Shown here piece by piece: positions 346 to 17,098 of a stretch of 29,794 bases of DNA. Source of the stretch: a virus. Position numbers and translations under genes: made by a program. The notes below the pieces were generated by a model. The model was not told the origin of the DNA and made no database searches. It worked only from the letters and a program-made list of their open reading frames with translations. The stretch's first letter is position 1. Each line of letters begins with the position of its first letter. The DNA lies in IMG/VR virus record IMGVR_UViG_3300020204_000022, positions 72,555 to 102,348 of that record. The stretch is one strand, 5' to 3'.

Positions 346-1710
346 ATGATAAAATTAATTATTTTCGATCTTGACGGTGTTCTTTTAAATTCTAAAAAGT
401 TGCACTTCGATACTTTGAACGAGGCCTTGGGTCCTCAATTCTTAATTTCATGGGAAGAACATCTTGCAAAATTTGATGGTTTGAAAACAAATCAAAAATT
501 AGATATTCTAACGCGGGAAAAGAATTTAAATCCTTCTGAACATAAATCAATTTGGGAGAAAAAACAAAAATTGACAGCACAGTACTTAAAGAACCTAAAT
601 CAAGATCATAAATTAATTCATCTTTTCCAATCTCTTTCAAATTCCGATTATAAGATAGCGGTTTGTTCCAACTCAATTCGAAAAACGGTTTTGATCACCA
701 CGTCAAAGTTGGGAATTATAGAATTTCTTGATTTAATTTTATCTAACGAGGATGTTAGAAATAGCAAGCCCCATCCAGAAATTTATTGGTCCGCTATTTC
801 TTCCTTCGGTTTTACCCCAGAAGAAACTTTAATCGTTGAAGATTCGCCGTATGGGTTATTGGCAGCTTCACGTAGCAATTCCAATGTTCTTCGAGTTTCC
901 GGACCAGAAGAAGTAACTTTAAAAAATATACAATCTAACATAGAAAAAATAAATAAATCAAAAAACAAAATCATCCATAAGTGGAAGGAAGAAAAGTTAA
1001 ATGTTTTGATTCCCATGGCTGGAGCGGGAAGTAGATTCCAACAAGCTGGTTACACTTTCCCAAAGCCTCTGATTGAGGTAAATGGGAAACCGATGATTCA
1101 GGTGGTTGTCGAAAATTTAAATTTGGATGCACATTACATTTTTGTTGTTCAAAAATCACACAGGGAAACTTACAATTTGGATTCATTGTTAAAATTGATT
1201 GCACCGGAATGTGATATTGTTGAAACGGAAGGAATTACGGAGGGAGCAGCTTGTACCGCTCTACTGGCCAAATCTTTTATTGATAACGACCAACCTCTCT
1301 TTTTTGCCAACTCTGATCAATTTGTGGAATGGGATTCCATAGAGTTCATGTACAAAATGAACGAAACACAGGCTGATGGCGGAATGGTCACCTTTGAAGC
1401 CACACATCCCAAGTGGTCTTTTGCTAAATTAGATTCTAGTGGATTGGTAACAGAAGTAGCAGAAAAAAACCCAATTTCTAACGTAGCTACTGTAGGATTT
1501 TATTTTTGGAAAAAAGGTTCAGATTTTGTTAAATATGCAGAATCTATGATACAAAAGGAAATTAGAGTCAATGGGGAATTTTATGTTTGCCCTGTTTTCA
1601 ACCAGGCCATAAAAGATGGGAAAAAAATTATTAATTACGAGATTCAAAAAATGTGGGGACTTGGTACTCCTGAAGATTTAAAATTTTTCTTGGAAAATTT
1701 TGGAGATTGA
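346..1710 (+). CDS. HAD-family phosphatase fused to sugar-phosphate nucleotidyltransferase (GT-A/NTP_transferase fold)
   Basis: N-half: FDLDGVL, KPHPEIY, IVEDS HAD motifs; C-half: LIPMAGAGSRF..PKPLIEV, ANSD, EK, GEFYVCP, GLGTPEDL nucleotidyltransferase motifs. Confidence 0.92.
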   Translation: MIKLIIFDLDGVLLNSKKLHFDTLNEALGPQFLISWEEHLAKFDGLKTNQKLDILTREKNLNPSEHKSIWEKKQKLTAQYLKNLNQDHKLIHLFQSLSNSDYKIAVCSNSIRKTVLITTSKLGIIEFLDLILSNEDVRNSKPHPEIYWSAISSFGFTPEETLIVEDSPYGLLAASRSNSNVLRVSGPEEVTLKNIQSNIEKINKSKNKIIHKWKEEKLNVLIPMAGAGSRFQQAGYTFPKPLIEVNGKPMIQVVVENLNLDAHYIFVVQKSHRETYNLDSLLKLIAPECDIVETEGITEGAACTALLAKSFIDNDQPLFFANSDQFVEWDSIEFMYKMNETQADGGMVTFEATHPKWSFAKLDSSGLVTEVAEKNPISNVATVGFYFWKKGSDFVKYAESMIQKEIRVNGEFYVCPVFNQAIKDGKKIINYEIQKMWGLGTPEDLKFFLENFGD

Positions 1711-1769: not shown

Positions 1770-1928
1770 ATGAAAATTTTGTTTTTCTTGCTTGTCTCGG
1801 CTTTTATTCTGAGCTCTTGTTCTACCCCCGCAGAAGAAACTGCTCCTTCCGAGGAGACAACAGTGGATTCTACTGTAGTTGAATCGGCGGACACCACCTC
1901 CGTAGATTCAATCGTTGCGGCCCAGTAA
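1770..1928 (+). CDS. small lipoprotein (52 aa)
   Basis: MKILFFLLVSAFILSSC: basic N-terminus, hydrophobic core and LSSC lipobox, then an acidic S/T-rich tail; start moved from TTG 1707 to ATG 1770. Confidence 0.8.
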   Translation: MKILFFLLVSAFILSSCSTPAEETAPSEETTVDSTVVESADTTSVDSIVAAQ

Positions 1929-1973
1929 TTCCGGACAAGCTTAAAACCCGGCCCAATTCAGGTCGGGTTTTTT
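1923..1973 (+). repeat. 51-bp direct repeat, copy 1
   Basis: cagtaattccggacaagcttaaaacccggcccaattcaggtcgggtttttt is identical to 3047-3097. Confidence 0.97.
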
Positions 1974-1974
1974 T
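1943..1974 (+). terminator. Rho-independent terminator
   Basis: aaaacccggcc-caattca-ggtcgggtttt stem-loop followed by a T run, directly after the lipoprotein gene. Confidence 0.85.
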
Positions 1975-1981
1975 ATATCAT

Positions 1982-2008
1982 AAAACATAGATAGGTTTTT
2001 GTCTATAA
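1982..2008 (+). promoter_or_regulatory. putative phage promoter AAAAC-N17-TATAA
   Basis: Variant of the recurrent motif, just upstream of ATG 2014. Confidence 0.5.
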
Positions 2009-2013
2009 TAATT

Positions 2014-2946
2014 ATGGAAAATATTACTTGTAGTTTGTCTGAATGTAGGACTATTTTAACTTTTCATAATAGTGGTGAAGAGAATTTCTTTTCTAATTTT
2101 GCTATATATGATAATGTTTATAATTTATTTGTAAGTGAAGGATGGGTAAGTGTTCCACCTTACGGATATACTAATTTCGAGATAGGTAATATTTTATCAA
2201 ATGCCTTTGATGATGTAAATTTCAAAGGTATCAGAATTTCTTTATTTAATGATAAAGGAGAAAAAAAAGAATATATCATAGGAGACAATTCTTCGAAAGA
2301 AAAATATTTCTATTATAATTCTTTAAATTCTTTGGAGGGACTATTGAGTTGGAAAAATAATGTATATGATGAGGTTTTTTTGGAAACTGATGTTATATAT
2401 GACTTGGGTGCAAATATCGGTATGTATTCATTATGGGTACTCGAACACACTATATCTAAATGTTATTGTTTTGAACCTGATCCTTATGTATTCAATTGTC
2501 TGGAAAAAAACTTAAAAAAATTCACTAATACGAAATGTTTCAATATTGCTATATCTGATAAAAATGGGTTTTCTGATTTTGGTGTAAGTGGTATTCATGA
2601 CGTAGGAAGCTCATTGAATTATAAAAATAATGTTAAAGAGTGGATTAGTATAGAAACTATAAATCTTGAAGATTGGATAAAAAAAAATGACCATACGCCG
2701 CCTACAATTATCAAATGTGATATAGAGCAAGAAGAATGGAACTTTCTAGATAGCTTATCTGATGATTTTATAAAAAGTTTGAGGTACATAATAGTAGAAT
2801 TTCATTGTTTTACAGATGATAAAAAAGAATTACACAATTATATTATTAGATTCTTAGATTTGAATTTTAGTTGTAGAAATATTCCAGGTTTGCATTATCC
2901 GGGATATCACAAAACCCTAAAATTCGTAAATTTAAACTACAAATGA
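2014..2946 (+). CDS. FkbM-family SAM methyltransferase
   Basis: YDLGANIGMYS, CFEPDP, NIAISD, IKCDIE, IIVEFH motifs; ATG 2014 preferred to TTG 1999. Confidence 0.88.
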   Translation: MENITCSLSECRTILTFHNSGEENFFSNFAIYDNVYNLFVSEGWVSVPPYGYTNFEIGNILSNAFDDVNFKGIRISLFNDKGEKKEYIIGDNSSKEKYFYYNSLNSLEGLLSWKNNVYDEVFLETDVIYDLGANIGMYSLWVLEHTISKCYCFEPDPYVFNCLEKNLKKFTNTKCFNIAISDKNGFSDFGVSGIHDVGSSLNYKNNVKEWISIETINLEDWIKKNDHTPPTIIKCDIEQEEWNFLDSLSDDFIKSLRYIIVEFHCFTDDKKELHNYIIRFLDLNFSCRNIPGLHYPGYHKTLKFVNLNYK

Positions 2947-3003
2947 AATGGACTGGAATATTTCATAAATATCGCCGAGAGTCCAAAACTAAGTATTAAC
3001 TGA
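2943..3003 (+). pseudogene. frameshifted 5' stub resembling a dCMP deaminase N-terminus
   Basis: ATGA overlap with the FkbM stop; removing one G gives MKWTEYFINIAESPKL, like the W..YF..IA start of dCMP deaminases. Confidence 0.4.
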
Positions 3004-3046
3004 AGAATAAACGGAAATAACCTATGTAAATTCAACCCTTTTAGCA

Positions 3047-3097
3047 CAGTAATTCCGGACAAGCTTAAAACCCGGCCCAATTCAGGTCGGGTTTTTT
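3047..3097 (+). repeat. 51-bp direct repeat, copy 2 (contains the same terminator hairpin)
   Basis: Identical to 1923-1973. Confidence 0.97.
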
Positions 3098-3127: not shown

Positions 3128-3565
3128 ATGAATCATTTGGAATCCTTTTTTTCTGTCGTGAAAGAATCTCGAAATTCCACAGACGATGGTGAAAAAATGA
3201 CCTATGATGATTTAATTATTTTTTTTACTGAATTAGGAATTTTTGTTTTTGAGGATCAAATCCAAATGAAAAAATTCGTTGAACAATTCGGAAGAGGCAA
3301 AGATCCCGAGGAATGGGCTGAATATCTTTTTGATTACTATCACAATCCCTATGAATATGATATTGAAGAAGATTCTGAATATTACGAGCAGATCTGTCAA
3401 TTTTACGAGGATTCAGTCGACCCCCACAAGAGGTTTGATTTACATGGATCAGCTATGAGAATAGGACAATACCAGAGATTTGATTTAGATGACATAGAGA
3501 AAACACCAGAATATAAATTGTACAAGGTCATGTCTGAAAAATTAGGTAAAAGAAAAATATCGTAG
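3128..3565 (+). CDS. hypothetical acidic protein, possible internal head protein
   Basis: ORF with start moved to ATG 3128 (MNHLESFFSVVKES) behind GATATATA. Confidence 0.7.
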   Translation: MNHLESFFSVVKESRNSTDDGEKMTYDDLIIFFTELGIFVFEDQIQMKKFVEQFGRGKDPEEWAEYLFDYYHNPYEYDIEEDSEYYEQICQFYEDSVDPHKRFDLHGSAMRIGQYQRFDLDDIEKTPEYKLYKVMSEKLGKRKIS

Positions 3566-3591
3566 AAACTTATAAGTTTCCAAGCATATAA
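3565..3591 (+). promoter_or_regulatory. putative promoter GAAAC-N17-TATAA overlapped by the perfect 16-bp palindrome GAAACTTATAAGTTTC
   Basis: Read directly from sequence; lies ahead of the TS-homologue operon. Confidence 0.6.
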
Positions 3592-3608: not shown

Positions 3609-4385
3609 TTGAAAACATTTCAAAAGCCCTCACAAGCCATAAAGTGGGCTAAGGAAAAATTGATTGACTACGGGTATGTTGTACAGACAGAAAGATGGCA
3701 GGGTATATCTTCCCCCGACGACATGTGGGAAACATTAAATACTTCTTTCTCTATGTTTGTCCCTCACACACTCGAAGGACTACGTGATGAGGTCAGACCT
3801 AATCTTCCCTGGGCGGACGATCACTTTGAAGAAAGAATCGGGGGCCAGCCGCTGAATCCACCCCCTTCTAACGAATGGTGGCCTTTCAACCAAAAGAAAA
3901 ATGCCCAATTCAAAACAGAGGAGAAATTTTCTCACACCTATCCGGAAAGACTTTGGCCGAAATATGCTTCAGATGTTCCAAATTCCATCATGGGAGGAAT
4001 TAGATATCAGTACGGGGACTTTGGAGACGTTATCAATTTGTTGCAAAAAGAGCCTTTTACCAGACAAGCTTTTCTCCCAATGTGGTTTCCTGAGGATACT
4101 GGATCTGTCCACGGGGAAAGAGTTCCTTGCACAATCGGCTATCATTTTATGAGAAGGTCCAATTACCTTCACATTGTGTATTACATCAGGTCCTGTGATT
4201 ATCTTCGCCACTTTAGGGACGATATCTATATGGCATGTCGGAAAGTTTTTTGGGTTCTAGAAAAATTAAGGGAAAAAAATCCCGAATCTTGGGGCGAGGT
4301 TAAACCTGGTTTTTTTACCATGCACATCACTTCTTTGCATTGTTTCAATAAGGAGAAAGAAGTGCTGAAACAAAACAATAAATGA
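3609..4385 (+). CDS. thymidylate synthase-superfamily protein, probable dCMP-modifying enzyme (hydroxymethylase/methylase/hydroxylase type)
   Basis: TRQA, RVPCT catalytic Cys, YYIRSCD and SLH motifs; RSCD-x7-D places Asp where ThyA has Asn. Confidence 0.82.
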   Translation: MKTFQKPSQAIKWAKEKLIDYGYVVQTERWQGISSPDDMWETLNTSFSMFVPHTLEGLRDEVRPNLPWADDHFEERIGGQPLNPPPSNEWWPFNQKKNAQFKTEEKFSHTYPERLWPKYASDVPNSIMGGIRYQYGDFGDVINLLQKEPFTRQAFLPMWFPEDTGSVHGERVPCTIGYHFMRRSNYLHIVYYIRSCDYLRHFRDDIYMACRKVFWVLEKLREKNPESWGEVKPGFFTMHITSLHCFNKEKEVLKQNNK

Positions 4386-5461
4386 AAAAATTTTGTGTTA
4401 TAATTGACGCATATCCACAATCAGAGGAGGATCAGAAAATTCTATTGGATAATCTTTTGATTTTCAAAAAGAATAACATAGACGTTCTACTTACAAGTCA
4501 CCATCCGTGTACTCCCGAGATTATTGAAAACACTACTTATTTTATTTTTGAAAAGAAAAACAATTATCATTTCTTAGATTCTGACGTTTTGAATTACAAT
4601 TTGGATGGTGTAGAAAATCCAGTTTATTTGAGTTATCTTCAAATAGGAAACGAAATGTTTAGAGACCATATAGTTGTAGCTGGTTGGTCAGTTTCTATTG
4701 TTTCTCAATTTGTCAATTCAATTAAATTTTTGTGGTCGAAGGAATATGAATTTGCCTTTTATTTTGTTGGAGATTTTAAATGTCCGGGGAATATTCAACA
4801 AAAATTCTCTGAAATTTTTTCAAATTTGGGAGATCACAAAAATTTCTTTATAAAAAATAATCCAAATTTCAGTAGCTGGTATTGTCCACATCTTTTTGGA
4901 TTCACTTTGGAAGAAAGTTTGATTAAAAAAATTCCAAATTTTGATTTTTCTGATAATTCGAATTTTCAAAAGCTTTTTCCAAATTGTTCTCTTGAAGATG
5001 TGATGCTAAAACTTTTTGGTGAAAATAAAAATCTAGTCTATGAACATTCTGAGATGGATAAATTTTTCGGATCTGGAAATTGGAATAAAGTAAGTTCTAT
5101 TATAAAACCTGGACCAAGCGCTTTACATTTCAACACAACTTCTTCTCTATTCTGGAAGGAAGATCTATCAGATTGTTATTTACTTTTTAATGTTCAACAT
5201 GAATGTCCCTTTGACAACGTCAGGTTTATAGTTGATATTGTAAACCAAAGTTCGAAATCAATTTTTAGTCGGGATATGATTCTTGGAAGGGGTGGATGGT
5301 ACAAAGAGAAATTGAATAACTTATTTTCCGATGGAGAAAGGGTAATATTTAATAAGAAAATACAAGATGTAGAAGAAACTTGTTTCTTTTCAGATTCTAT
5401 AAATATAAGAAATACAAGTTTAAAAAAATATACATCTTTGAAAAACTATTATGAAATTTAA
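4382..5461 (+). CDS. hypothetical protein of the glycan cluster (possibly glycosyltransferase-like)
   Basis: 359-aa ORF with ATGA overlap to the TS homologue; alpha/beta N-terminus (CVIIDAYP..DVLLTSH); no clear DxD. Confidence 0.6.
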   Translation: MKKFCVIIDAYPQSEEDQKILLDNLLIFKKNNIDVLLTSHHPCTPEIIENTTYFIFEKKNNYHFLDSDVLNYNLDGVENPVYLSYLQIGNEMFRDHIVVAGWSVSIVSQFVNSIKFLWSKEYEFAFYFVGDFKCPGNIQQKFSEIFSNLGDHKNFFIKNNPNFSSWYCPHLFGFTLEESLIKKIPNFDFSDNSNFQKLFPNCSLEDVMLKLFGENKNLVYEHSEMDKFFGSGNWNKVSSIIKPGPSALHFNTTSSLFWKEDLSDCYLLFNVQHECPFDNVRFIVDIVNQSSKSIFSRDMILGRGGWYKEKLNNLFSDGERVIFNKKIQDVEETCFFSDSINIRNTSLKKYTSLKNYYEI

Positions 5462-5463
5462 CA

Positions 5464-6105
5464 ATGGATAACTCTTACAACTTAAATTTAGAAGGAATAA
5501 TTGGAGGACATCTTAAAACTCTTTATTGAGGGATTAGAGCGGAAAAATGTCCTTTTGATTATGTTTTATATCAGATGTTGATTAATGAAATTCAGCCAGA
5601 TTTGATTATAGAGATAGGTACTAATTATGGAGGATCATGTCTTTATTTGGGTGATCTTTTAAATTCTATAGGTAAAGGTATGGTTCATACTATTGACATT
5701 CAGGAAGATTCTTTTTTTTCAAATTCAGAAGAAAAGAGAGGTTTAATTACACGTCATCCAAGGATTCAAAGATTTTTGGGAGGTTATCAAGAATATAACT
5801 TAGATTATGCATCTTCCTTTAAAAAAATTATGTTGATTGAAGATGGGTCACACAATTACTCGGACACTTTGGGTGTTATGAACAAATTTAAGGATATAGT
5901 AAACGAAGATTCTTATATGATCATAGAAAATGGAAGTGTTAACTGGATGGGAATTGAGCAGGCTTATGAAGGTGGTCCACTTAAAGCTATTGAAGAATTT
6001 TTGCCGCAAAATCCGCAATTTCAAATAGATAGAAAATGGTGCGATTTTTATGGTTACAATGTTACTTTCAATCCTAACGGTTATCTAAAAAAAATTAAAA
6101 TTTGA
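5464..6105 (+). pseudogene. CmcI/rhamnosyl O-methyltransferase-like gene interrupted by an in-frame TGA at 5527-5529
   Basis: ATG 5464 is in frame with 5575: TLY*GIRAEKCPFDYVLYQMLINEIQPDLIIEIGT..IEDGSH..GGPLKAIEEFL..TFNPNGYLK. Confidence 0.75.
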
Positions 6106-6115
6106 AATTATTTTC

Positions 6116-6763
6116 ATGATAGTTGTAGCAACTCACGATTCAATAAAATTTCTTCACCTTTCAATTAATAACATGAGAAAAGTGAATTTAAATGGACATC
6201 GGGTTTTGTTCATTGATACTAATTCTAAAGATATTGAATTTAAGAAAGAATTTGAAATAGCTAAAAATAATAATCCCGAATTTTTATTCGAAAGTCTGGA
6301 CTATACTTGCTGGGACAGCGGGGCATATATTTATGCTTTTGAAAAATATAAAGCGGATTCTTATATTTTTTTACAAGATTCTTTAGAAATACTTGATAAA
6401 GATTACATTTGTTGTTTTGATGATCAACTAAAAAATTTTGATGTAATTGGGCATTTCCCCTTTGATTATTTTTACGATAATGAAGAACAAAAGATTTGGG
6501 TGGAAAGCGATATTAAATTCGATTCATATCCAAAACATGGGATTTTTGGACCAATTTTTGCCGCGACTAGTAATATTTTAGAAAGATTGCCGAAAGAATG
6601 TATAAAATACCCAACGAATAAAAATCAAGGATGTGGTATGGAAAGAAGATGGTCTCTTATGTTTCATTCTATAGGGGCAACTAAAACATATTTGGAAAAT
6701 GATGATTTGTGGAAAAAATTTTCCGAAAAATATATTCACAAACATTTCCCAACGAGACTATAA
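6116..6763 (+). CDS. putative glycosyltransferase (GT-A-like)
   Basis: IVVATH, FIDTNS, WDSGAY, IFLQDS and ERRW pattern; cluster context. Confidence 0.55.
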   Translation: MIVVATHDSIKFLHLSINNMRKVNLNGHRVLFIDTNSKDIEFKKEFEIAKNNNPEFLFESLDYTCWDSGAYIYAFEKYKADSYIFLQDSLEILDKDYICCFDDQLKNFDVIGHFPFDYFYDNEEQKIWVESDIKFDSYPKHGIFGPIFAATSNILERLPKECIKYPTNKNQGCGMERRWSLMFHSIGATKTYLENDDLWKKFSEKYIHKHFPTRL

Positions 6764-6779
6764 ATTGTAAATTTCAACG

Positions 6780-6833
6780 ATGAAAAAATTAGTTCTAATT
6801 AGTTCTCATTGTGATTCTGAAGCTAAACAATAA
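6780..6833 (+). pseudogene. 17-codon gene stub (MKKLVLISSHCDSEAKQ)
   Basis: Good ATG context; resembles the start of the 4382 protein (MKKFCVIIDAYPQSEEDQ) and stops just before a promoter. Confidence 0.35.
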
Positions 6834-6852
6834 AAAATTAAAAAATTTCCAG

Positions 6853-6879
6853 GAAACATCATAACAAAAAAATCTATAA
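6853..6879 (+). promoter_or_regulatory. putative promoter GAAAC-N17-TATAA
   Basis: Recurrent motif ahead of ATG 6906. Confidence 0.6.
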
Positions 6880-6905
6880 TCATTTCATAAGACAGGATTT
6901 ACAAA

Positions 6906-7577
6906 ATGAAAAAAAACATTTTCGAATATTATAATATGGATGAAAATCTTGGTGGTTTATATCCATATCGTCAACATTTTATAAAAAGTTGGTCAACTGA
7001 TATACCATACATAAAAAAATACATAGAAGAAAAATTTACGGATAACCAAATTGGAAGAACAATAGTTGAAATAGGAGTTCAGGGGGGTGGTAGTTTACTT
7101 AAGACTTTTGACCTCATAGAAAATAAAAACGTTAAGCTTTTTGGTATAGACGTTTGGGAAAATGGAGGTGGTGGTTGTAACGGTCAGCCGATGGATTTTT
7201 TCACAGAAGAAAGCCTCGATACGATTGACCAATTGCTGAAAGAGTGCAGAACCAATCTACTGGATATTCTTTCCATATATGACCATAAAAACCAAGTGGA
7301 ATTAATTCACGGATCATCTAGGGACCAAAATGTAATATCCAGATTTGATGATAGGTCTATTGATCTGATTTACATTGATGGGGATCATAGTTTCCAAGGA
7401 TGTTATCTAGATTTAGTTAATTGGTACCAAAAAGTTAAAATTGGTGGTTGTATCATAAATGATGATTACGCAGACGAAAGATTCGAAGTTAAAAAAGCTG
7501 TTGATCAATTTTTGGAAGATATAGGTCAGAAAGATTTATTTTTCAATGGTTGGCAATCTTGTTTCATAAAGAAATGA
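6906..7577 (+). CDS. class I SAM methyltransferase (Methyltransf_24-like)
   Basis: VEIGVQGGGS, GIDVW, IDLIYIDGDHS, KVKIGGCIINDDY, VKKAVD. Confidence 0.88.
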   Translation: MKKNIFEYYNMDENLGGLYPYRQHFIKSWSTDIPYIKKYIEEKFTDNQIGRTIVEIGVQGGGSLLKTFDLIENKNVKLFGIDVWENGGGGCNGQPMDFFTEESLDTIDQLLKECRTNLLDILSIYDHKNQVELIHGSSRDQNVISRFDDRSIDLIYIDGDHSFQGCYLDLVNWYQKVKIGGCIINDDYADERFEVKKAVDQFLEDIGQKDLFFNGWQSCFIKK

Positions 7578-7598
7578 GGAACTTTTCAAATCGATAAT

Positions 7599-8258
7599 AT
7601 GGCAAACGGAGTTTATAAAATTACCGAGGATTTCGAAAAATCATTATCGGATTACACGGGTGCACCCTATGTGATATGCCTTGATAACCAAAGTAATGGC
7701 CTTTTTCTTTCTCTATATTACGAACATTATGTTTGTAAAACTTTAACTAGGGATACAATAACAATACCATCGAGGACTTACCCATCAGTTCCTTGTGAAA
7801 TAATACACGCTGGTCTCAAAGTTCAATTTGAAAAAGTTAAGGGTAAAACTCTAAAAGGTGCCTATAACCTTATAGGTAGTAGAGTTTGGGACTCGGCCCT
7901 TAGATTTACTGCAGATATGTATATCCCCAATACATTTATGTGTGTTTCTTTCACTGGACCATATAAACACTTCAAACTTTCCAAAGGTGGAGCCATTTTG
8001 ACTGATGATTATGATGCTTATTTGTGGTTTAAAAGAGCAAGATATTCAGGAAGAAGAGAATGTTCTTATCACGACGACCACTTTGATATGATTGGATGGA
8101 ATTTTTATATGATCCCCGAATTGTCAACAAGAGGTTTACTTCTAATGGGACAATTTTACAACTCAGATGGTAGAAAAAAAAATAATCCAGACCTAGAATT
8201 ACCTTATCCGGATCTTTCTAAATTCGGAATTTACACATCTCATAATACTCAATCGTGA
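7599..8258 (+). CDS. short DegT/DnrJ/EryC1/StrS-like PLP-dependent sugar aminotransferase
   Basis: FEKSLSDYTGA, TIPSRTYPSV..IIHAG, DSA, SF...K..GGAILTDD, IGWNFYM; only 219 aa. Confidence 0.78.
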   Translation: MANGVYKITEDFEKSLSDYTGAPYVICLDNQSNGLFLSLYYEHYVCKTLTRDTITIPSRTYPSVPCEIIHAGLKVQFEKVKGKTLKGAYNLIGSRVWDSALRFTADMYIPNTFMCVSFTGPYKHFKLSKGGAILTDDYDAYLWFKRARYSGRRECSYHDDHFDMIGWNFYMIPELSTRGLLLMGQFYNSDGRKKNNPDLELPYPDLSKFGIYTSHNTQS

Positions 8259-9511
8259 AACTTAAAATATTAGTTTTTCCTTGTGGTAGTGAAATTGGAT
8301 TAGAAATTTTCAATTCGTTGAATTCCATCAAAAACATAGAATTGTTTGGAGCTAGTAGTGTTGATGATAATGGAAAATTTGTTTTCCAAAATTATTTTGG
8401 AAATATTCCAATGCTTCATGAAAAAAATTTCATAGATTCAATTAAAAATTTAGTTTCTAAAAATAAAATAGATTACATTTATCCTTGTATGGATATAGCT
8501 ATTTTGAAATTAAAACAACACGAAAAAGAAATTGGATGCAAAATAATAAGCTCCCCTATTGAGACTGTCATAATTGCTTCAAGAAAAAGTTTAACGTATT
8601 CTAAATTAAAAAATATTATAAGAACACCAAAAATTTTATCTCCGGAAAAACCAGAATTCCCCATGTTTTCTAAACCAGATGTGGGGTCAAGCAGTAGAAA
8701 CACTCTTAAAGTTAATGATCCATTGGATCTTCAATATTCTCGCAAATTATATCCAGAGAATCTTCTTTTAGAATTTCTTCCGGGGGAAGAGTTTACTGTG
8801 GATTGCTTTACCGACAGAAATAGAAAACTTTTGTTCATTGGACCAAGAAAAAGAAAAAGAATTTCAAATGGAATCAGTGTTGGAACCGAAGAAATTGTGG
8901 ACATAAAAATAACGGAAATTGCACACAAGATAAATAATTCCATGATATTCAGTGGGTCTTGGTTTTTCCAGTTAAAAAAGGATAAAAATGAAGAATATTG
9001 TCTTTTAGAAATTGCGTGCAGATTTGGTGGATCTTCCGTTCTTAACAGAATTAAGGGAGTGAATTTTTCACATCTTAGCTTATTGAATGAATTTCAAAAT
9101 GTTCAAATTTTAAAAAATAATTATGATGTAGAAATTGGAAGAAGTCTGGATATTAAATGTAAAAGCAAATTAGAATATTCTAAAGTTTATATTGATTTCG
9201 ATGATACAATCATTATAAATAATGAAGTTAACCTGGATGCAATAAGATTTTTATATGACTGTTTCAACCGAGGGGTAAAGATTATCTTGATAACTAAACA
9301 TAAATATCCAATTAAAGAAACTTTGAAAAAATTCAAAATTCACGAAAGTTTATTTCATAGCATAATACAAATTCAACACTCGGATTCAAAATTCAATTAT
9401 ATAGAAAGTCAAGAATCAATATTCATCGACGATTCTTTCAAAGAATTGATGGATGTAAATAAAAATTTAAATATTCCAGTCATTTCAGTAGAAAACATAA
9501 AACATCTATGA
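8255..9511 (+). CDS. ATP-grasp ligase with C-terminal HAD-like domain
   Basis: KPDVGSSS, EFLPGEEFTVD, LLEIACRFGG; C-terminal IDFDDT..ILITK..IFIDDS. Confidence 0.82.
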   Translation: MKLKILVFPCGSEIGLEIFNSLNSIKNIELFGASSVDDNGKFVFQNYFGNIPMLHEKNFIDSIKNLVSKNKIDYIYPCMDIAILKLKQHEKEIGCKIISSPIETVIIASRKSLTYSKLKNIIRTPKILSPEKPEFPMFSKPDVGSSSRNTLKVNDPLDLQYSRKLYPENLLLEFLPGEEFTVDCFTDRNRKLLFIGPRKRKRISNGISVGTEEIVDIKITEIAHKINNSMIFSGSWFFQLKKDKNEEYCLLEIACRFGGSSVLNRIKGVNFSHLSLLNEFQNVQILKNNYDVEIGRSLDIKCKSKLEYSKVYIDFDDTIIINNEVNLDAIRFLYDCFNRGVKIILITKHKYPIKETLKKFKIHESLFHSIIQIQHSDSKFNYIESQESIFIDDSFKELMDVNKNLNIPVISVENIKHL

Positions 9512-10047
9512 ATAAAAAAATTGTTAGTGAATTAGATAACAAAAATCTTTTAATCATTAGGGAAAATGTTTCTAATTTCATTCGTGATCTCAGCTTAAAT
9601 CACGACCTCAAGGAAAATCGGGTTTTAGATATTGCTCCACAGAAATATTTAGGAGTAAAAGAATTTTTCAAAAATTCAAAAGTTTCCACTTTAGATATAG
9701 ACCCAAATTCTGGAGCTGATTATATATGTGATATTTGTGAAAGTAATCATCATTTAATACCAGATGAAACCTTTGATTTGGTTGTTTGTACAGAAGTTTT
9801 AGAACACGTCAATAACCCATTTCTTGCGGTTCAAGAACTACATAGAATCACAAAAAAAGGAGGTTTTGTTGGATCTTCTACCCCATTTAATTTCAGAATA
9901 CACGGACCACTCCCGGATAATTGGAGATTTACAGTTCACGGTTTGAATATTTTGTTTCAGAATTTTGAAAAGGTTGAAATTTCGGGAGTAGAAGATCCAG
10001 AAAGAAATTTGATGCCTATTCATTATACCATTTGTGCAATAAAATAA
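9508..10047 (+). CDS. class I SAM methyltransferase
   Basis: VLDIAP, TLDID, FDLVVCTEVLEHV..P, KKGG, D.WRFT. Confidence 0.88.
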   Translation: MNKKIVSELDNKNLLIIRENVSNFIRDLSLNHDLKENRVLDIAPQKYLGVKEFFKNSKVSTLDIDPNSGADYICDICESNHHLIPDETFDLVVCTEVLEHVNNPFLAVQELHRITKKGGFVGSSTPFNFRIHGPLPDNWRFTVHGLNILFQNFEKVEISGVEDPERNLMPIHYTICAIK

Positions 10048-10049
10048 AA

Positions 10050-11042
10050 ATGACAAAAAGAGCATATATAACCCACGTTACTGAGGAATATCTACCAGTT
10101 GCAAGAAATCTGGGGAAATCTTTAAAACTTTTTTCCGATTTAAATCTTTTGATTTATGTTCTAAATGCAAAAGAAAAATCCGATCAATTTTTTTCGGATT
10201 TGGAAAATGTTAAAATCAGAAATATTAATTTAAATTTAGAAAATTCATCTTCGAACGATTACACTTTTAATCCTTCTGGTAATTTTTACATCGATAGATC
10301 GAGATCTAGAATTTATAAAATTCTTTGTGCTAAAACTTTGGCTATGGAAATGGCTTTAGAAGAAGGATATGAAGAAATTTGCTACTTAGATTCTGATTGT
10401 ATTGCTACCCCTGTGGTGGATGAACTTTTCAACTGGATGAATTTAGTTACAGATTATCCCATTGGTACTGCAGGAATTCACGAGTACATGATAATCATAG
10501 AATCTAATGGATATCAAAGGGGGAATCCATTCGAAAATACCTGGCCTGAGGCAGATCACAAAAAAACTTTAGAATGGCCTTTGATGGAATTTTTACAAAT
10601 GCCAGAAGGATCTAGAGGAAACTACAGAACCACCGGGATTATGCTTATGAACAAAAATTGTTTACCTTTCATTAAAATTTGGAGCGAATTTTGTTTTATT
10701 CTGCCAAAACTAAATTTGAATTTAAACCATCTTGCAGCTTATCACGAAGAAACTATTTACAACGTTCTATCCTGGAAAAAAACAAATATAGGGTTTCCTC
10801 TCTGTTACATAAACTTGAGAGAAGGTTTGACCACAACAAAACACTTTTACGAAGAAGGACAACCTGGATTTTCTACCTGGATGACCGAAGAAAACCCAGA
10901 TTATTCTTTAAATTTTTATTCTATACCACCAGAAAAAAGAAATGTGAAAGTTCTCCATGGGGAAAAGAGGTCAGATGAAGCTGACCTAATTTTACAATAT
11001 CTCACAAAATTGAAAGATGCCAGATTCTTTGAAAGCTTCTAA
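10050..11042 (+). CDS. putative glycosyltransferase (GT-A, GT8-like)
   Basis: CYLDSD DxD motif, TGIMLMNK, EETIYN, LHGEK; paralogous in pattern to 21991-22842. Confidence 0.7.
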   Translation: MTKRAYITHVTEEYLPVARNLGKSLKLFSDLNLLIYVLNAKEKSDQFFSDLENVKIRNINLNLENSSSNDYTFNPSGNFYIDRSRSRIYKILCAKTLAMEMALEEGYEEICYLDSDCIATPVVDELFNWMNLVTDYPIGTAGIHEYMIIIESNGYQRGNPFENTWPEADHKKTLEWPLMEFLQMPEGSRGNYRTTGIMLMNKNCLPFIKIWSEFCFILPKLNLNLNHLAAYHEETIYNVLSWKKTNIGFPLCYINLREGLTTTKHFYEEGQPGFSTWMTEENPDYSLNFYSIPPEKRNVKVLHGEKRSDEADLILQYLTKLKDARFFESF

Positions 11043-11775
11043 TTTAGATTTATCTCTGTTAGTTCACACCTGTGATGCTTATCAAAAATTTTGGGGCGGG
11101 ATGTTATATTCACTCGATTTTAATTGGGACTATGATTTTGTCCCTGTTTTTTGGGCTAGTGAAGAAATCAACATTCACGAAATAGAAATGGATTGTCGGG
11201 GTTTACGTTATGAACCAAATAAAAAAATCACGACCATATTGACCGGAAAAACTGATAAAAATGGGTTTTCTAACAGGATGAAAATTGCCTTAGAAAAAAT
11301 TCATTCCAAATGGGTTATTTACATTCAGGAAGATATGTGGCTAATTTCCTATCCAGGAAATGAAATTCTACAGAAGTTGGTCAATTTTGCAGAAAATCAA
11401 AATGCAGATGGGATAAAAATTCACACAAAGTTACATTATTATGATGGATATGTTTTAGAATACACCCCATTCAAAATTGGGGGAGTTGATATTCTAAAAT
11501 ACTCACCAGGTGAAAATTATTTACACACCCACAATGCAACAATTTGGAATCGAGAATATTTAATTCAAAATCTTGTTGACGGAGAAGATCCCTGGACTAA
11601 TGAGATAAACGGTTCGAAAAGGATGTGTCAAAAACCACACAACCATTTTCATTATAATATACATTGGTATTCTCAACCTGGAATTTGTGAGATGGGTCAA
11701 GAATCCAGAGATTTTTTCACTTTAGCCCCTATTTTGGATGATAGAATGTCCTTGAAATTGAAATTCAAAAAATAG
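11017..11775 (+). CDS. putative glycosyltransferase-like protein
   Basis: LLVHTCDAY, VIYIQED, ATIWNRE, PWTNE pattern; cluster context. Confidence 0.55.
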   Translation: MPDSLKASNLDLSLLVHTCDAYQKFWGGMLYSLDFNWDYDFVPVFWASEEINIHEIEMDCRGLRYEPNKKITTILTGKTDKNGFSNRMKIALEKIHSKWVIYIQEDMWLISYPGNEILQKLVNFAENQNADGIKIHTKLHYYDGYVLEYTPFKIGGVDILKYSPGENYLHTHNATIWNREYLIQNLVDGEDPWTNEINGSKRMCQKPHNHFHYNIHWYSQPGICEMGQESRDFFTLAPILDDRMSLKLKFKK

Positions 11776-11824: not shown

Positions 11825-12091
11825 ATGGTGAAAATTTTCAGAGAGATTAAAAAACCCACGGATTCTTTGTTGTTGCACTACCAGGATCAATTCATCAGAA
11901 ATCAAAACAAGTGGATTAGAAAATCTAAATTGACCCCAGAACATTTGCATCACGAATTCAAGATGGGTAAAACAAAATACAATCTTCGTGGGAGTTTAAA
12001 TCCAACAGAATTTATTCTTGAAGAAGTTGGTACCGGAAAATTTTTTATCGTAGATTCTCATCAGGTCGATTCTTGTATTTTGAAATCCTAA
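11825..12091 (+). CDS. hypothetical protein
   Basis: 88-aa ORF, ATG start, packed. Confidence 0.65.
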   Translation: MVKIFREIKKPTDSLLLHYQDQFIRNQNKWIRKSKLTPEHLHHEFKMGKTKYNLRGSLNPTEFILEEVGTGKFFIVDSHQVDSCILKS

Positions 12092-12095
12092 TATA

Positions 12096-12299
12096 ATGGT
12101 AACAACAGTTAAAACGAAGACACCAAAATCTCACTTGGAAGTTTGTACCCTAATAAATATGCACAGTTCCCTTATTATAGAATCAAAAATTCTTGGTGAA
12201 GAATTTTACGGTGTGTTTGTGATTGACACAGATCCAGAAACGGTGGATTCTTTTATTATTGCATCTGAAACAGATGTGTGCTGGGATTCTAATTTTTAA
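12096..12299 (+). CDS. hypothetical protein
   Basis: 67-aa ORF, ATG start, packed. Confidence 0.6.
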   Translation: MVTTVKTKTPKSHLEVCTLINMHSSLIIESKILGEEFYGVFVIDTDPETVDSFIIASETDVCWDSNF

Positions 12300-12318
12300 A
12301 AAAATCGGGTTTGTGTTG

Positions 12319-12326
12319 GATATATA
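12319..12326 (+). promoter_or_regulatory. putative late promoter GATATATA
   Basis: 8 nt upstream of ATG 12335. Confidence 0.55.
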
Positions 12327-12334
12327 GTCCAACT

Positions 12335-12730
12335 ATGGAACCTAACCCACTCGCCGATACCATACGTGCTATTTTGCACGAAGAACTTTCTCTTACTAGA
12401 ACAGTCCCTTCCAGCGATCTTAGAATTATTCAGATTGCTATGGAAGATCTTAAAAACTCTCAGGCAGAAATGAAAAGAGAGCTATCAGATATTAAGAGAA
12501 AATTGCTTGATCCAGATGATGGGGTTATAGTCAAGGTGAACGAAAACACCAGATTTCGAGCCGAATTTGAAAGAAGGCAAGAACGTGAAGACATTGCTTA
12601 TCAAAAGATGCTCTTAGAACACTCTGATCTTGTGAAATGGAAATCCGGGGTAAATAAAGCACTTTGGATTTTCTTCACCACACTAGTTGGTATTCTTGCA
12701 AAAATATTTTTCCTATCGGAAACACCTTAA
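12335..12730 (+). CDS. coiled-coil protein with C-terminal transmembrane helix (holin/XhlA-like topology)
   Basis: Heptad-like MEDLKNSQAEMKRELSDIK; hydrophobic ALWIFFTTLVGILAKIFFL tail; start moved to ATG 12335. Confidence 0.6.
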   Translation: MEPNPLADTIRAILHEELSLTRTVPSSDLRIIQIAMEDLKNSQAEMKRELSDIKRKLLDPDDGVIVKVNENTRFRAEFERRQEREDIAYQKMLLEHSDLVKWKSGVNKALWIFFTTLVGILAKIFFLSETP

Positions 12731-16681: not shown

Positions 16682-17098
16682 ATGAAATTCAATAATATGT
16701 CAGAATACGGTTCTTTTCAAATCGATCTTATAACATCAGAAAAAGCAGAAAAAGAAAAACTAGAATTTCTTCAATCGGAAATTTTGAAATTAAATTTCGA
16801 AAAAAATTTATTGGAAAAAATTTCGGACAGCATCGAGATAGGGAAAACTGGGTTTTGGGAAATTTTCTTGGAGGAGGATGGAATTGAAATCCTAGATGAT
16901 GAAGATTTCTCGAATTTGATCTTTACCCTAGAATCTATCTTTGGTGGATTTGACCAGGGATCAAATTATTCATATACAGTAGATCTTCCATATTCTTCCA
17001 AAGTTTGGAAGAAAGAATCTGACGGGTGGGATTTAATTTTTGAAGAGGAAAATCCATACGAAGAAGAAGAAGGTTTCAATCACTGGGACGATGAATGA
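16682..17098 (+). CDS. hypothetical acidic protein
   Basis: 138-aa ORF abutting the previous stop. Confidence 0.7.
   Translation: MKFNNMSEYGSFQIDLITSEKAEKEKLEFLQSEILKLNFEKNLLEKISDSIEIGKTGFWEIFLEEDGIEILDDEDFSNLIFTLESIFGGFDQGSNYSYTVDLPYSSKVWKKESDGWDLIFEEENPYEEEEGFNHWDDE

What the first reader, a model, noticed from the sequence alone, without database searches (positions are those of the whole stretch)
3609..11775. dCMP-type thymidylate-synthase homologue heading a glycosyl/methyl/amino-transferase operon: possible new cytosine hypermodification
Seen: PCT and RSCDYLRHFRDD. ThyA has PCH and RSxD-x7-N, whereas T4 gp42 dCMP hydroxymethylase has CT and RSxD-x7-D (FRND); that Asp is the established dCMP-specificity determinant. 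The gene is translationally coupled (ATGA) to a run of GT-like genes, three methyltransferases, an aminotransferase and an ATP-grasp ligase. Inference: the phage makes a 5-modified dCMP that may carry a complex methylated or aminoacylated sugar. Alternative: the sugar genes act on virion proteins or the host surface and the TS homologue is independent.
Basis: partly seen in the sequence, partly recalled or inferred. Interest (0 to 1): 0.75.

Follow-up and report, generated by a model that had tools for sequence, protein, structure and literature searches.

The report
Cytosine-modifying enzyme beside variable sugar island
A large uncultured lake phage carries a thymidylate-synthase-like enzyme tuned for dCMP, plus a T4-type dCTPase elsewhere in its genome, so it probably replaces cytosine in its DNA; the sugar- and methyl-transferase genes next to it are a swappable island that related phages gain, lose or keep without that enzyme.

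Summary
Gene 3609-4385 encodes a 258-aa thymidylate-synthase (TS)-fold protein with PCT and RSCD-x7-D, which line up with T4 gp42 (MCT, RSND-x7-D) and with E. coli ThyA (PCH, RSCD-x7-N). An ATGA overlap joins it to the next gene.

It belongs to a very large, virus-borne, uncharacterised TS subfamily (more than 4900 proteins, including mycobacteriophage Muddy gp46). The subfamily scores below Pfam's cut-off, and the Asp is invariant or nearly so.

This phage also has a T4 gp56-like dCTPase and an adenylate-kinase-family (ADK) nucleotide kinase. Its near-complete relatives also carry a canonical ThyA (PCH...N). That is the T4-style kit for replacing dC with a 5-substituted dC. I favour 5-hydroxymethyl; 5-methyl is not excluded.

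The "operon" claim fails:
- The 7.4-kb block 4382-11775 holds two GT-A glycosyltransferases, three methyltransferases, a short DegT-like protein and an ATP-grasp ligase. It is a hypervariable island with its own promoter-like motifs.
- Most relatives lack it. Two complete genomes keep the TS-like gene and the dCTPase without it.
- Its GT8-like gene occurs in viruses that lack the TS-like gene.

Sugar decoration of cytosine is therefore possible (about 0.2) but unsupported. This scan has flagged the same TS subfamily on other genomes.

The parts
3565..3591 (+). Promoter-like motif GAAAC-N17-TATAA, 18 nt before the TS-like start codon
   Evidence: 7 matches in the window against 0.83 expected; 10 in the 102-kb contig against about 3 expected, 7 of them in this window
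3609..4385 (+). Divergent TS-fold enzyme (258 aa, TTG start) with a cytosine-type active site: C174, T175, R194-S-C-D197, D205. Predicted 5-substituted-dCMP synthase.
4382..5461 (+). GT-A-fold glycosyltransferase with a C-terminal beta-sandwich (359 aa). ATGA-coupled to the TS-like gene in this phage only.
   Evidence: pLDDT 89; Foldseek hits TarS, BoGT6a, GnT-I, glycogenin, E about 1e-5. In L005 and L007 an FkbM gene lies between it and the TS gene.
5375..5402 (+). Second GAAAC-N18-TATAA motif, inside the 3' end of 4382-5461 and 173 nt before 5575
5575..6105 (+). CmcI / rhamnosyl O-methyltransferase-like SAM methyltransferase (176 aa)
   Evidence: PF04989, 4e-24
6116..6763 (+). 215-aa protein, unassigned. 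A GT-A fold is suspected by eye only.
   Evidence: no significant match
6853..6879 (+). Third GAAAC-N17-TATAA motif, 27 nt before 6906
6906..7577 (+). Methyltransf_24 / TylF-like methyltransferase (223 aa)
   Evidence: Homologues lie beside the GT8-like gene in 9 other viral loci.
7599..8258 (+). Short DegT/DnrJ/EryC1-family protein (219 aa), conserved at 77-81% identity as a short form in other viruses
8255..9511 (+). ATP-grasp ligase (418 aa; ATPgrasp_Ter / PRK12767 type)
9508..10047 (+). Methyltransf_11 class I SAM methyltransferase (179 aa)
10032..11042 (+). GT8-like retaining GT-A glycosyltransferase (336 aa) with an invariant LDSDC (DxD) motif. Homologues are often fused to GT2 or Methyltransf_24 domains.
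   Evidence: pLDDT 90.5; LgtC, LARGE1, glycogenin, E about 1e-8
11017..11775 (+). 252-aa protein, unassigned. It travels with the GT8-like gene in 6 of the 21 GT8-like loci.
11825..12730 (+). Three small backbone genes (88, 67 and 139 aa). In relatives without the island they follow the TS-like gene, so they mark the right edge of the island.
346..1710 (+). HAD-phosphatase / sugar-1-phosphate nucleotidyltransferase fusion (454 aa), a likely sugar-activation enzyme of the glycan toolkit. It lies outside the reported span.
1881..3097 (+). FkbM methyltransferase cassette bracketed by a direct repeat that ends in a terminator-like hairpin plus T-run by my reading, so read-through into the TS gene is unlikely

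Best explanation
There are two separable things here. (1) Gene 3609-4385 encodes a member of a large, virus-specific, biochemically uncharacterised branch of the thymidylate-synthase fold. It uses the conserved Cys to attack C6 of dCMP, not dUMP, and transfers a one-carbon unit to C5. I infer that the product is most likely 5-hydroxymethyl-dCMP, with 5-methyl-dCMP as the second choice. The phage also has a gp56-like dCTPase, which would remove dCTP and supply dCMP. It has an ADK/UMP-CMP-kinase-family nucleotide kinase and ribonucleotide reductase. Its relatives add a canonical ThyA and a dCMP deaminase. Together these would let the phage build DNA in which cytosine is replaced before replication, as T4 does. 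(2) The 7.4 kb downstream (4382-11775) is a hypervariable glycan-building island inserted between the TS-like gene and the backbone genes 11825-12730. It holds at least two GT-A glycosyltransferases, three methyltransferases, a DegT-like protein and an ATP-grasp ligase, and has its own promoter-like motifs. It belongs to the phage's wider sugar toolkit: the HAD-nucleotidyltransferase at 346, FkbM genes at 1999 and 26121, a GT25-like gene at 17040, and RpiB at 27514. It most likely builds a methylated, amino-modified glycan on an acceptor other than DNA (virion or cell-surface), and it is not functionally tied to the TS-like enzyme. Shown: the active-site signature, the gene kit, the synteny and the double dissociation. 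Inferred: the substrate, the product and the acceptor.
For: Signature: searches show C146, H147T, D169 kept and N177D. The N177D and position-147 discriminators are described in PMC8670742 and PMC13326640. The enzyme is a second TS: relatives G001-G005 each also have a ThyA scoring 210-325 bits, and the two I read in full have PCH...LPFN. No ThyX was found. dCTPase: T4 gp56 homologues (E 7e-20 to 1e-26, 30-40% identity, essentially full length) are in all six genomes, including G000:46941-47396. That gene lies next to RNR and 4 kb from an ADK-family kinase. A dCMP deaminase is present in G003 and G004. In small phages (Serratia Opt-155, Streptomyces Zuko, Muddy) the same subfamily sits in the order kinase, NTP pyrophosphatase, hypothetical protein, TS-like, deaminase, PolA. 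That is the module reported for C-replacing phages such as Xp12 (bioRxiv 10.1101/2024.12.05.627091). Hydroxymethyl lean: hhalign aligns the family with gp42 over 189 columns but with ThyA over only 63. Only 12 residues follow the SLH motif, against 55 in ThyA and 28 in gp42, so the C-terminal lid that closes ThyA for hydride transfer is missing. Island independence: synteny; the promoter motif; different tailoring genes at the same site in L005, L007 and L016, including full-length DegT, GNAT, PglD-like, PhyH, GT2 and an FkbM-GT34 fusion; complete genomes G004 and G005 lack both GT families; the GT8-like gene occurs without the TS-like gene; GT-MT and GT-GT fusions occur among its homologues.
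Against: There is no biochemical evidence for any member of this subfamily. Position 143 is a conserved Arg, not the Asp/Glu described for hydroxymethylases, so the product is open. gp56 homologues also hydrolyse dUTP, and no other dUTPase was found, so this one may simply be the phage's dUTPase. No T4 gp1-type dNMP kinase was found. A GT8-like gene lies on the 3' side of the TS-like gene in three sub-lineages (this phage with L005, L006 and L036; L007; and L016 with L018). T4 likewise places beta-gt next to gene 42. GT8-like GT-A enzymes are reported to extend glycans on 5hmC in DNA. A link between the island and the modified base therefore remains possible. The TS-like gene shares the GAAAC...TATAA motif with the sugar cassettes and not with the dCTPase or RNR genes.
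Confidence: 0.55

Rival explanations
1. The TS-like enzyme makes 5-hydroxymethyl-dCMP (or another hydroxylated dCMP). After replication the island's glycosyltransferases attach a sugar to it, and the methyltransferases, DegT-like protein and ATP-grasp ligase then tailor that sugar. The result would be a new methylated or amino-acylated glycosyl-cytosine in DNA. The island's variability would reflect an arms race with modification-dependent restriction.
For: The TS-like gene and the first GT are ATGA-coupled. A GT8-like gene lies just 3' of the TS-like gene in three sub-lineages. T4 places beta-gt beside gene 42. RB69 and DLP3 cluster a TS homologue with NDP-sugar synthesis genes and GTs. This window likewise has a HAD-nucleotidyltransferase, RpiB and a HAD phosphatase. 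GT8-like GT-A phage enzymes add secondary sugars on 5hmC. The TS-like gene and the sugar cassettes share a promoter motif.
Against: There is a double dissociation. Complete relatives have the TS-like gene and the dCTPase without either GT family. The GT8-like gene, with the same partner genes, occurs in viruses that lack the TS-like gene, one of them 97% complete. In L005 and L007 an FkbM gene separates the TS gene from the GT, and in G017 the GT-A homologue lies about 20 kb away. No T4-type GT-B DNA glucosyltransferase was identified in the island. The product may be 5-methyl, which has no hydroxyl to glycosylate, and no Tet/JBP oxygenase was found (though that search had no positive control). 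Sugar genes are scattered over the whole 30 kb and not only beside the TS gene. Methylated or acylated sugars on DNA have no precedent in the papers I read.
Confidence: 0.2
2. The TS-like enzyme is a dCMP methyltransferase (5-methyl-dCMP synthase), as in Xanthomonas phage Xp12. The DNA would then carry 5-methylcytosine, which cannot be glycosylated without a further oxidation step.
For: In small phages the subfamily occupies the same slot as the Xp12 enzyme, between a MazG-type pyrophosphatase and a dCMP-deaminase-family gene, and those genomes have no second TS. Five of seven deaminase-linked Asp177 TS homologues tested in bioRxiv 10.1101/2024.12.05.627091 made 5mdCMP. Position 143 is Arg, not Asp/Glu. 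The best NCBIfam match is the short methanogen-type thymidylate synthase, TIGR03283, so a short C-terminus need not prevent methyl transfer.
Against: The Xp12 enzyme is a canonical-length TS (138 bits to PF00303, a tail of about 60 residues, VPCP) and sits on the ThyA side of the tree. The present family groups weakly with gp42 and RB69 gp48 and shares their PCT. It lacks the C-terminal lid. I do not know whether any tested enzyme belonged to this subfamily.
Confidence: 0.3
3. The protein is simply a divergent thymidylate synthase or dUMP-modifying enzyme, as public phage records annotate it, and the DNA has normal cytosine.
For: Homologues are annotated 'thymidylate synthase' in 100+ phage records. 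In the small phages I checked it is the only TS-fold gene and sits with a thymidylate kinase, a dUTPase and a dCMP deaminase.
Against: Asp replaces Asn177 across the family, and Asn-to-Asp switches TS from dUMP to dCMP (literature cited). His147 is also replaced. The jumbo-phage relatives already have a canonical ThyA. dUMP hydroxymethylases (SPO1 gp29, phiW-14) keep an Asn and have PCN.
Confidence: 0.05
4. The TS-like enzyme and the island together make a free cytosine-containing glycosylated small molecule, like the MilA-initiated mildiomycin and blasticidin-type peptidyl nucleosides, and not modified DNA.
For: The gene types resemble such clusters: a TS-like CMP hydroxymethylase, a GT, an aminotransferase, an ATP-grasp ligase and methyltransferases. 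This resemblance is from my own knowledge. MilA appears among weak PDB hits (E 0.3).
Against: The TS-like gene is a backbone gene that co-occurs with the dCTPase, RNR and ThyA, not with the island. No CMP-hydrolase-type partner was noticed. The family occurs in more than 4900 mostly viral proteins and sits next to DNA polymerase genes.
Confidence: 0.02

Closest known systems
Phage T4 hydroxymethylcytosine pathway: gp42 dCMP hydroxymethylase, gp56 dCTPase, td thymidylate synthase, cd deaminase, gp1 kinase, alpha/beta-glucosyltransferases
   Same: A second TS-fold enzyme with Cys-Thr and Asp at the Asn177 position, and an FRxD context like gp42's FRND. A gp56 homologue at 30-40% identity. A separate canonical ThyA in relatives, in one case split by an endonuclease-like ORF as T4 td is by its intron. 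A dCMP deaminase in relatives. A GT gene beside the TS-like gene.
   Different: The similarity to gp42 is only at profile level (hhalign 83%, E 9e-6, 22% identity). The family is a separate long-branched clade. Arg replaces Asp at the position-143 equivalent. No gp1-type kinase was found. The neighbouring GTs are GT-A and not the GT-B fold of T4 alpha/beta-GT, and they are dispensable in relatives.
Xanthomonas phage Xp12-type 5-methyl-dCMP synthase module with a 5mC-selective deaminase (bioRxiv 10.1101/2024.12.05.627091)
   Same: Asp at position 177. In small phages the present subfamily occupies the same place, between a MazG-type pyrophosphatase and a dCMP-deaminase-family gene next to PolA.
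   Different: The Xp12 enzyme is a canonical-length TS (138 bits to PF00303, against 20.9 here), with VPCP and a long C-terminal tail. The jumbo phages studied here lack MazG/PRA-PH and have a gp56-type enzyme and a ThyA instead.
RB69 / DLP3 5-hydroxy-dCMP synthase with the arabinosylation gene cluster (PMC13326640)
   Same: A TS homologue with PCT and Asp177, clustered with sugar-nucleotide synthesis genes and GTs. This is the precedent for 'glycodiverse' cytosines.
   Different: The diagnostic D169N change is absent here (RSCD, against RSQN in RB69 gp48). The GTs there are GT-B-like, and the cluster there is syntenic across families, whereas here it is variable.
Multi-domain GT/methyltransferase enzymes that build methylated virion glycans, e.g. 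chlorovirus PBCV-1 A064R (recalled from the literature; its capsid GT is mentioned in the passage read)
   Same: Homologues of 10032-11042 occur fused to a second GT (GT2) or to a Methyltransf_24 domain. The island is rich in O-methyltransferase families (CmcI, TylF, FkbM).
   Different: No sequence or structural match to A064R was obtained here. The acceptor in this phage is unknown.
MilA CMP 5-hydroxymethylase (PDB 5B6D/5JNH; PMC5175136)
   Same: A TS-fold enzyme acting on a cytosine nucleotide with Asp at the 177 position. It is a weak PDB hit.
   Different: E-value 0.3 only. MilA acts on the ribonucleotide in an antibiotic pathway, whereas the context here is DNA-precursor metabolism.

Membership tests
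Thymidylate synthase superfamily (Pfam PF00303) | Score at or above the Pfam gathering threshold (24.3 bits) | tested here: not met
   20.9 bits, E 2e-4, over residues 138-199 only. The six-frame search gives 19.6 bits. Some relatives (Serratia, Zuko) just pass at 27.6-28.2 bits.
Thymidylate synthase superfamily (PF00303) | Catalytic Cys in a P-C motif and the R-S-x-D phosphate/folate motif, with the fold homologous to TS | tested here: met
   VPC174 and R194-S-C-D197, invariant in the family. hhalign to E. coli ThyA 91% and to gp42 83% over 189 columns. phrog_160 'thymidylate synthase' 2e-26. PDB phmmer best hits are L. casei TS.
T4 gp42-type dCMP hydroxymethylase | Asp at the ThyA Asn177 position (dCMP selection) | tested here: met
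   D205, invariant in 26 diverse members and at least 90% conserved in 76. Also present in Muddy, Serratia and Zuko homologues.
T4 gp42-type dCMP hydroxymethylase | Non-His residue (Thr) after the catalytic Cys | tested here: met
   PCT here, MCT in gp42, PCT in RB69 gp48, PCH in ThyA.
T4 gp42-type dCMP hydroxymethylase | Acidic residue at the ThyA Leu143 position, proposed to admit or activate water (PMC13326640) | tested here: not met
   A conserved Arg (R171) occupies C-3. gp42 has Asp and RB69 gp48 has Glu. Xp12, a known methylase, has Asn there by my alignment, so the rule is not strict.
T4 gp42-type dCMP hydroxymethylase | Belongs to the gp42 clade in a tree | tested here: inconclusive
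   The family is one clade (100/99) on a branch of length 8.1. It joins gp42 and RB69 gp48 with 82/63 support, and the program warns of long-branch attraction.
T4 gp42-type dCMP hydroxymethylase | Catalytic activity: dCMP + CH2-THF + H2O gives 5hm-dCMP | not testable with these tools
   An enzyme or in vivo assay is needed.
5-hydroxy-dCMP synthase (RB69 gp48 / DLP3 gp80) | Asn replacing ThyA Asp169 (D169N), the diagnostic residue in PMC13326640 | tested here: not met
   RSCD retains the Asp and it is invariant in the family. RB69 gp48 has RSQN.
Xp12-type 5-methyl-dCMP synthase | Canonical-length TS with the C-terminal lid, plus Asp177 | tested here: not met
   Asp177 is present, but only 12 residues follow the SLH motif, against about 55-60 in ThyA and Xp12. 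The family is on the opposite side of the tree from Xp12.
T4-like dC-replacement kit | A dCTPase (gp56 homologue) in the same genome | tested here: met
   G000:C1:46941-47396, E 6.6e-20, 31% identity over residues 4-168 of 171. Also found in all 5 relatives. Whether it prefers dCTP or dUTP was not tested.
T4-like dC-replacement kit | A dNMP kinase able to take the modified dCMP (gp1 type) | tested here: not met
   No gp1 homologue, though that search had no positive control. An ADK-family kinase at G000:51622-52341 is a candidate substitute.
T4-like dC-replacement kit | A separate dUMP-type thymidylate synthase | tested here: met
   Found in relatives G001-G005. It is not on this 37%-complete contig.
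CAZy GT8-like retaining GT-A glycosyltransferase (gene 10032-11042) | GT-A fold with a DxD motif and structural match to GT8 members | tested here: met
   Model pLDDT 90.5. Foldseek hits LgtC, LARGE1 and glycogenin at 1e-8 to 1e-7, prob 1.0. Invariant L-D-S-D-C. Pfam GT8 gives only E 0.079, below threshold.

The most novel reading that the evidence does not exclude
The island's enzymes build an O-methylated, amino- or amino-acyl-modified oligosaccharide on 5-hydroxymethylcytosine in the phage DNA. The cassette-like turnover of tailoring genes at this one site would then be O-antigen-style diversification of a DNA glycan under pressure from modification-dependent restriction. That would be a kind of DNA hypermodification (tailored, methylated sugars on a base) not reported in the papers I could search.
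Probability: 0.18. Interest if true: 0.85.

Novelty: new variant of a known kind. Interest (0 to 1): 0.45.

Why it matters
If the TS-like subfamily does act on dCMP, a very large and mostly mis-annotated enzyme family predicts modified cytosine in many phages. The family has more than 4900 clustered proteins and is labelled 'thymidylate synthase' in 100+ cultured phage genomes, including the therapeutic mycobacteriophage Muddy. Modified cytosine would affect restriction evasion, sequencing and cloning behaviour, and phage engineering. Because the family scores below or near Pfam's cut-off, Pfam-based screens such as those in the cited studies would under-count it.

The sugar island matters in a different way. 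It is a clear example of a fixed-site, hypervariable glycan-gene hot spot in jumbo lake phages. The double dissociation shown here warns against inferring DNA glycosylation from adjacency alone.

Tried and rejected
I obtained contexts with the search for related loci and the genome search instead.
- Megablast of 25 kb against cultured phages found nothing.
- PDB sequence searches with 4382-5461, 10032-11042 and 7599-8258, and with profiles A1 and A2, found nothing useful.
- hhalign of the two unassigned proteins (6116-6763 and 11017-11775) against the GT alignments was not significant, so they stay unassigned.
- The sigma-70 and terminator scan was at chance level.
- MazG, PRA-PH, trimeric dUTPase, Tet/JBP and ThyX were not found in this phage or its relatives. 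The Tet/JBP and gp1 searches had no positive control.
- A literature search for DNA-modification data on cultured phages that carry this subfamily (PMBT14, Serbin, GTE2, Muddy) gave nothing relevant.
- I considered and rejected 5-hydroxy-dCMP synthase (D169 is retained) and a MilA-like small-molecule pathway (the context is DNA-precursor metabolism).
- I did not model the TS-like protein itself, because both structure predictions went to the GTs. The profile search of 1.84 billion representatives was not used.

Full report
**Setting.** The window is the last 29.8 kb of a 102-kb IMG/VR virus contig (G+C 36%; CheckV completeness 37%). Its closest relatives are 150-320-kb jumbo-phage contigs. Nearly all genes are on the + strand.

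**Observation.** Gene 3609-4385 (TTG start, 258 aa) contains ERVPCTIGY and IRSCDYLRHFRDDIYM.
- The match to Pfam Thymidylat_synt is weak: 20.9 bits, below the 24.3-bit cut-off, over the core only.
- The match to phrog_160 'thymidylate synthase' is good (2e-26). There is a distant match to the short methanogen-type TS, TIGR03283.
- The best PDB sequence hits are L. casei TS, with T4 TS (1TIS) and MilA lower down.
- In a MAFFT alignment with 75 viral homologues, T4 gp42 and E. coli ThyA, the Cys aligns with C146/C148 and Thr with H147/T149. RSCD aligns with R166-D169, and the final Asp with N177/D179.
- That Asp, the Thr, the RSCD Asp and an Arg three residues before the Cys are invariant in a 26-sequence sample reaching 43% identity.
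- The stop codon overlaps the next start as ATGA.

**What the TS-like protein is.**
- The family is very large: 4902 clustered proteins at E<=1e-5.
- It is found on 79 IMG/VR loci from contigs of 6 to 320 kb and on 133 cultured-phage records. These include Gordonia, Mycobacterium (Muddy, FF47), Serratia, Streptomyces, Pseudomonas, Brevundimonas and, more distantly, Clostridium phages. Most are annotated 'thymidylate synthase'.
- In the small phages the gene sits in a fixed module: thymidylate kinase, then a MazG/dUTPase-type pyrophosphatase, a conserved 260-350-aa hypothetical protein, the TS-like gene, a dCMP-deaminase-family gene and a UDG-fused family-A polymerase.
- This is the neighbourhood described for phages that replace C by 5mC or 5hmC. 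There, Asp177 TS homologues are linked to 5mC-selective deaminases, and five of seven tested enzymes made 5mdCMP (bioRxiv 10.1101/2024.12.05.627091).
- The reference enzyme of that work, Xp12, is a different, canonical-length TS: 138 bits to PF00303, VPCP, RSSD, LPYD and a long C-terminus.
- In a maximum-likelihood tree the present family is a single long-branched clade (100/99). It joins gp42 and RB69 gp48 only weakly (82/63, with a long-branch warning). ThyA, Xp12 and the dUMP hydroxymethylases of SPO1 and phiW-14 fall on the other side.
- hhalign aligns the family with gp42 across 189 columns (83%, E 9e-6) but with ThyA across only the 63-column core.

**Published diagnostic residues.**
- Asn177 to Asp selects dCMP, and position 147 co-varies with modification (PMC8670742).
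- Leu143 to Asp/Glu marks hydroxymethylases, and Asp169 to Asn marks 5-hydroxy-dCMP synthases (PMC13326640).
- Here 177 is Asp and 147 is Thr, which is cytosine-type. Position 169 is Asp, so this is not a 5-hydroxy synthase. Position 143 is Arg, which fits neither pattern.
- Only 12 residues follow the conserved SLH motif, against 55 in ThyA and 28 in gp42. From established TS enzymology, the C-terminal residues close the ternary complex for hydride transfer, so I lean towards a hydroxymethyl product.
- The short methanogen TS match and the Xp12-like module context keep 5-methyl open.

**Genomic kit.**
- The contig has no canonical ThyA or ThyX, but it is only 37% complete.
- All five larger relatives (74-100% complete) carry both the TS-like gene and a canonical ThyA scoring 210-325 bits. 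No ThyX was found. The two ThyA genes I read in full (G004, G002) have PCH...RSVD/RSQD...PFN. In G001 and G003 the ThyA hit is in two pieces, and in G003 a 323-aa ORF lies between them, which I read as endonuclease-like without testing it.
- A T4 gp56 dCTPase/dUTPase query finds an essentially full-length homologue in all six genomes, here at G000:46941-47396 (E 7e-20).
- That gene lies beside a PolB fragment, an HhH-GPD glycosylase-like protein and nrdB/nrdA (with an intein), and 4 kb upstream of an ADK-family nucleotide kinase.
- A dCMP deaminase is present in G003 and G004.
- MazG, PRA-PH, trimeric dUTPase, Tet/JBP and a T4 gp1 kinase were not found.
- The set mirrors T4's td + gene 42 + gene 56 + cd arrangement. 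I cannot distinguish dCTPase from dUTPase activity in silico.

**The downstream block.**
- Pfam assigns 5575-6105 (CmcI/rhamnosyl-O-MT-like), 6906-7577 (Methyltransf_24/TylF), 7599-8258 (a short DegT-like protein), 8255-9511 (ATP-grasp) and 9508-10047 (Methyltransf_11).
- AlphaFold2 models built on alignments of homologues show that 4382-5461 is a GT-A-fold transferase with a C-terminal beta-sandwich. The model has pLDDT 89, and Foldseek finds TarS, BoGT6a, GnT-I and glycogenin.
- The same approach shows 10032-11042 to be a GT8-like retaining GT with an invariant LDSDC motif. The model has pLDDT 90.5, and Foldseek finds LgtC, LARGE1, glycogenin and UGGT at about 1e-8.
- Homologues of 10032-11042 are frequently fused to a GT2 or a Methyltransf_24 domain. 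I take such fusions to be glycan-assembly enzymes.
- Genes 6116-6763 and 11017-11775 remain unassigned.

**Is it one operon with the TS gene?** Four lines of evidence say no.
1. It occurs 7 times in the window against 0.83 expected. Copies lie 18 nt before the TS gene, 173 nt before 5575 and 27 nt before 6906.
2. In L008, L009, L013, L014, L015, L020 and L022 the TS-like gene is followed, directly or after one or two short ORFs, by homologues of 11825, 12096 and 12311. Only L005, L006, L036 and L007 share parts of the block, with an FkbM gene between the TS gene and the GT. They also carry different tailoring genes: a full-length DegT, GNAT, a PglD-like acetyltransferase, a PhyH dioxygenase and GT2. 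L016 and L018 have an FkbM-GT34 fusion plus the GT8-like gene. The block is therefore a hypervariable island at a fixed site.
3. Complete genomes G004 and G005 have the TS-like gene, the dCTPase and ThyA but neither GT family. G001 served as the positive control. In G017 the GT-A homologue is about 20 kb away from the TS gene.
4. Of 21 viral loci with the GT8-like gene, 17 lack the TS-like gene within 10 kb. These loci often carry homologues of 6906, 7599, 1999 and 11017. Nine such records lack the TS-like gene altogether, including one that is 97% complete and whose only TS has Asn at position 177.

**What still favours a link.**
- ATGA coupling in this phage.
- Recurrence of a GT8-like gene on the 3' side of the TS gene in three sub-lineages.
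- The T4 precedent of beta-gt beside gene 42.
- The RB69/DLP3 clusters, which combine a TS homologue, NDP-sugar synthesis genes and GTs.
- The report that GT8-like GT-A phage enzymes add secondary sugars to 5hmC glycans.
- The promoter motif shared by the TS gene and the sugar cassettes.

I put this reading at about 0.2.

**Verdict.** The TS homologue is a real, cytosine-type, second TS-fold enzyme of an uncharacterised viral subfamily, embedded in a T4-like dC-replacement kit. The transferase genes are an independent, swappable glycan island and not an operon headed by it. Earlier notes of this scan flagged the same RSCD-x7-D subfamily, with a gp56-like dCTPase and a canonical ThyA, on about 18 other genomes. 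One follow-up reached a similar 'may decorate, may be general toolkit' conclusion. I treated these as leads only.

Noticed in passing
L098:4072-6198 (relative G003, 220-222 kb): The canonical ThyA of relative G003 is split into two ORFs (105 and 266 aa) by a 323-aa ORF that I read as homing-endonuclease-like, untested. G001's ThyA hit is also in two pieces. This recalls the intron-interrupted td gene of T4.
   Followed up: partly
G000:C1:48457-51473 (outside the window; L003:10457-13473): The ribonucleotide reductase large subunit is interrupted by a Hint/intein module, and the reading frame is called as two ORFs (395 and 598 aa).
   Followed up: no
L135:4941-5714 (Mycobacterium phage Muddy gp46) and L135:3042-6253: The therapeutic phage Muddy carries the same cytosine-type TS-like enzyme (VPCT, RSCD-x7-D), annotated as thymidylate synthase. 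It sits in the order kinase, dUTPase, hypothetical protein, TS-like, hypothetical protein, PolA. This predicts modified cytosine or an unusual dTMP route. I found no paper addressing it.
   Followed up: partly
Cluster 7, e.g. L072:439-1221, Serratia OPT155_50, Zuko gp75, Muddy gp47: A conserved 260-350-aa protein with no Pfam match always lies immediately upstream of the TS-like gene in the small phages (21 loci). It may be a partner enzyme of the pathway. It is absent from the jumbo-phage clade.
   Followed up: no
window:1881-1973 and 3005-3097: The FkbM methyltransferase gene (1999-2946) is bracketed by a 93-nt direct repeat (84% identity, with the last 51 nt identical). The repeat ends in what I read as a terminator-like hairpin plus T-run, which suggests a cassette insertion.
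   Followed up: partly
L124 (record G006, 476 kb, 97% complete, flagged provirus): This record carries the GT8-like gene but no cytosine-type TS. Its only TS has HPCA...RSND-x7-N, meaning His147 is replaced while Asn177 is kept. The enzyme is unusual and its product is unknown; a dUMP hydroxymethylase is one possibility.
   Followed up: no
window:12979-14037: A glutamine-synthetase-fold protein (352 aa) is a conserved backbone gene just downstream of the TS region in several relatives (62-70% identity in the ORF comparison). Its role is unknown; it could be an amide ligase.
   Followed up: no
G000:C1:44646-45047 (outside the window): A 133-aa HhH-GPD glycosylase-like protein lies next to the PolB fragment and the gp56-like dCTPase. 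Other notes of this scan call similar proteins MBD4-like and link them to modified-cytosine genomes.
   Followed up: no
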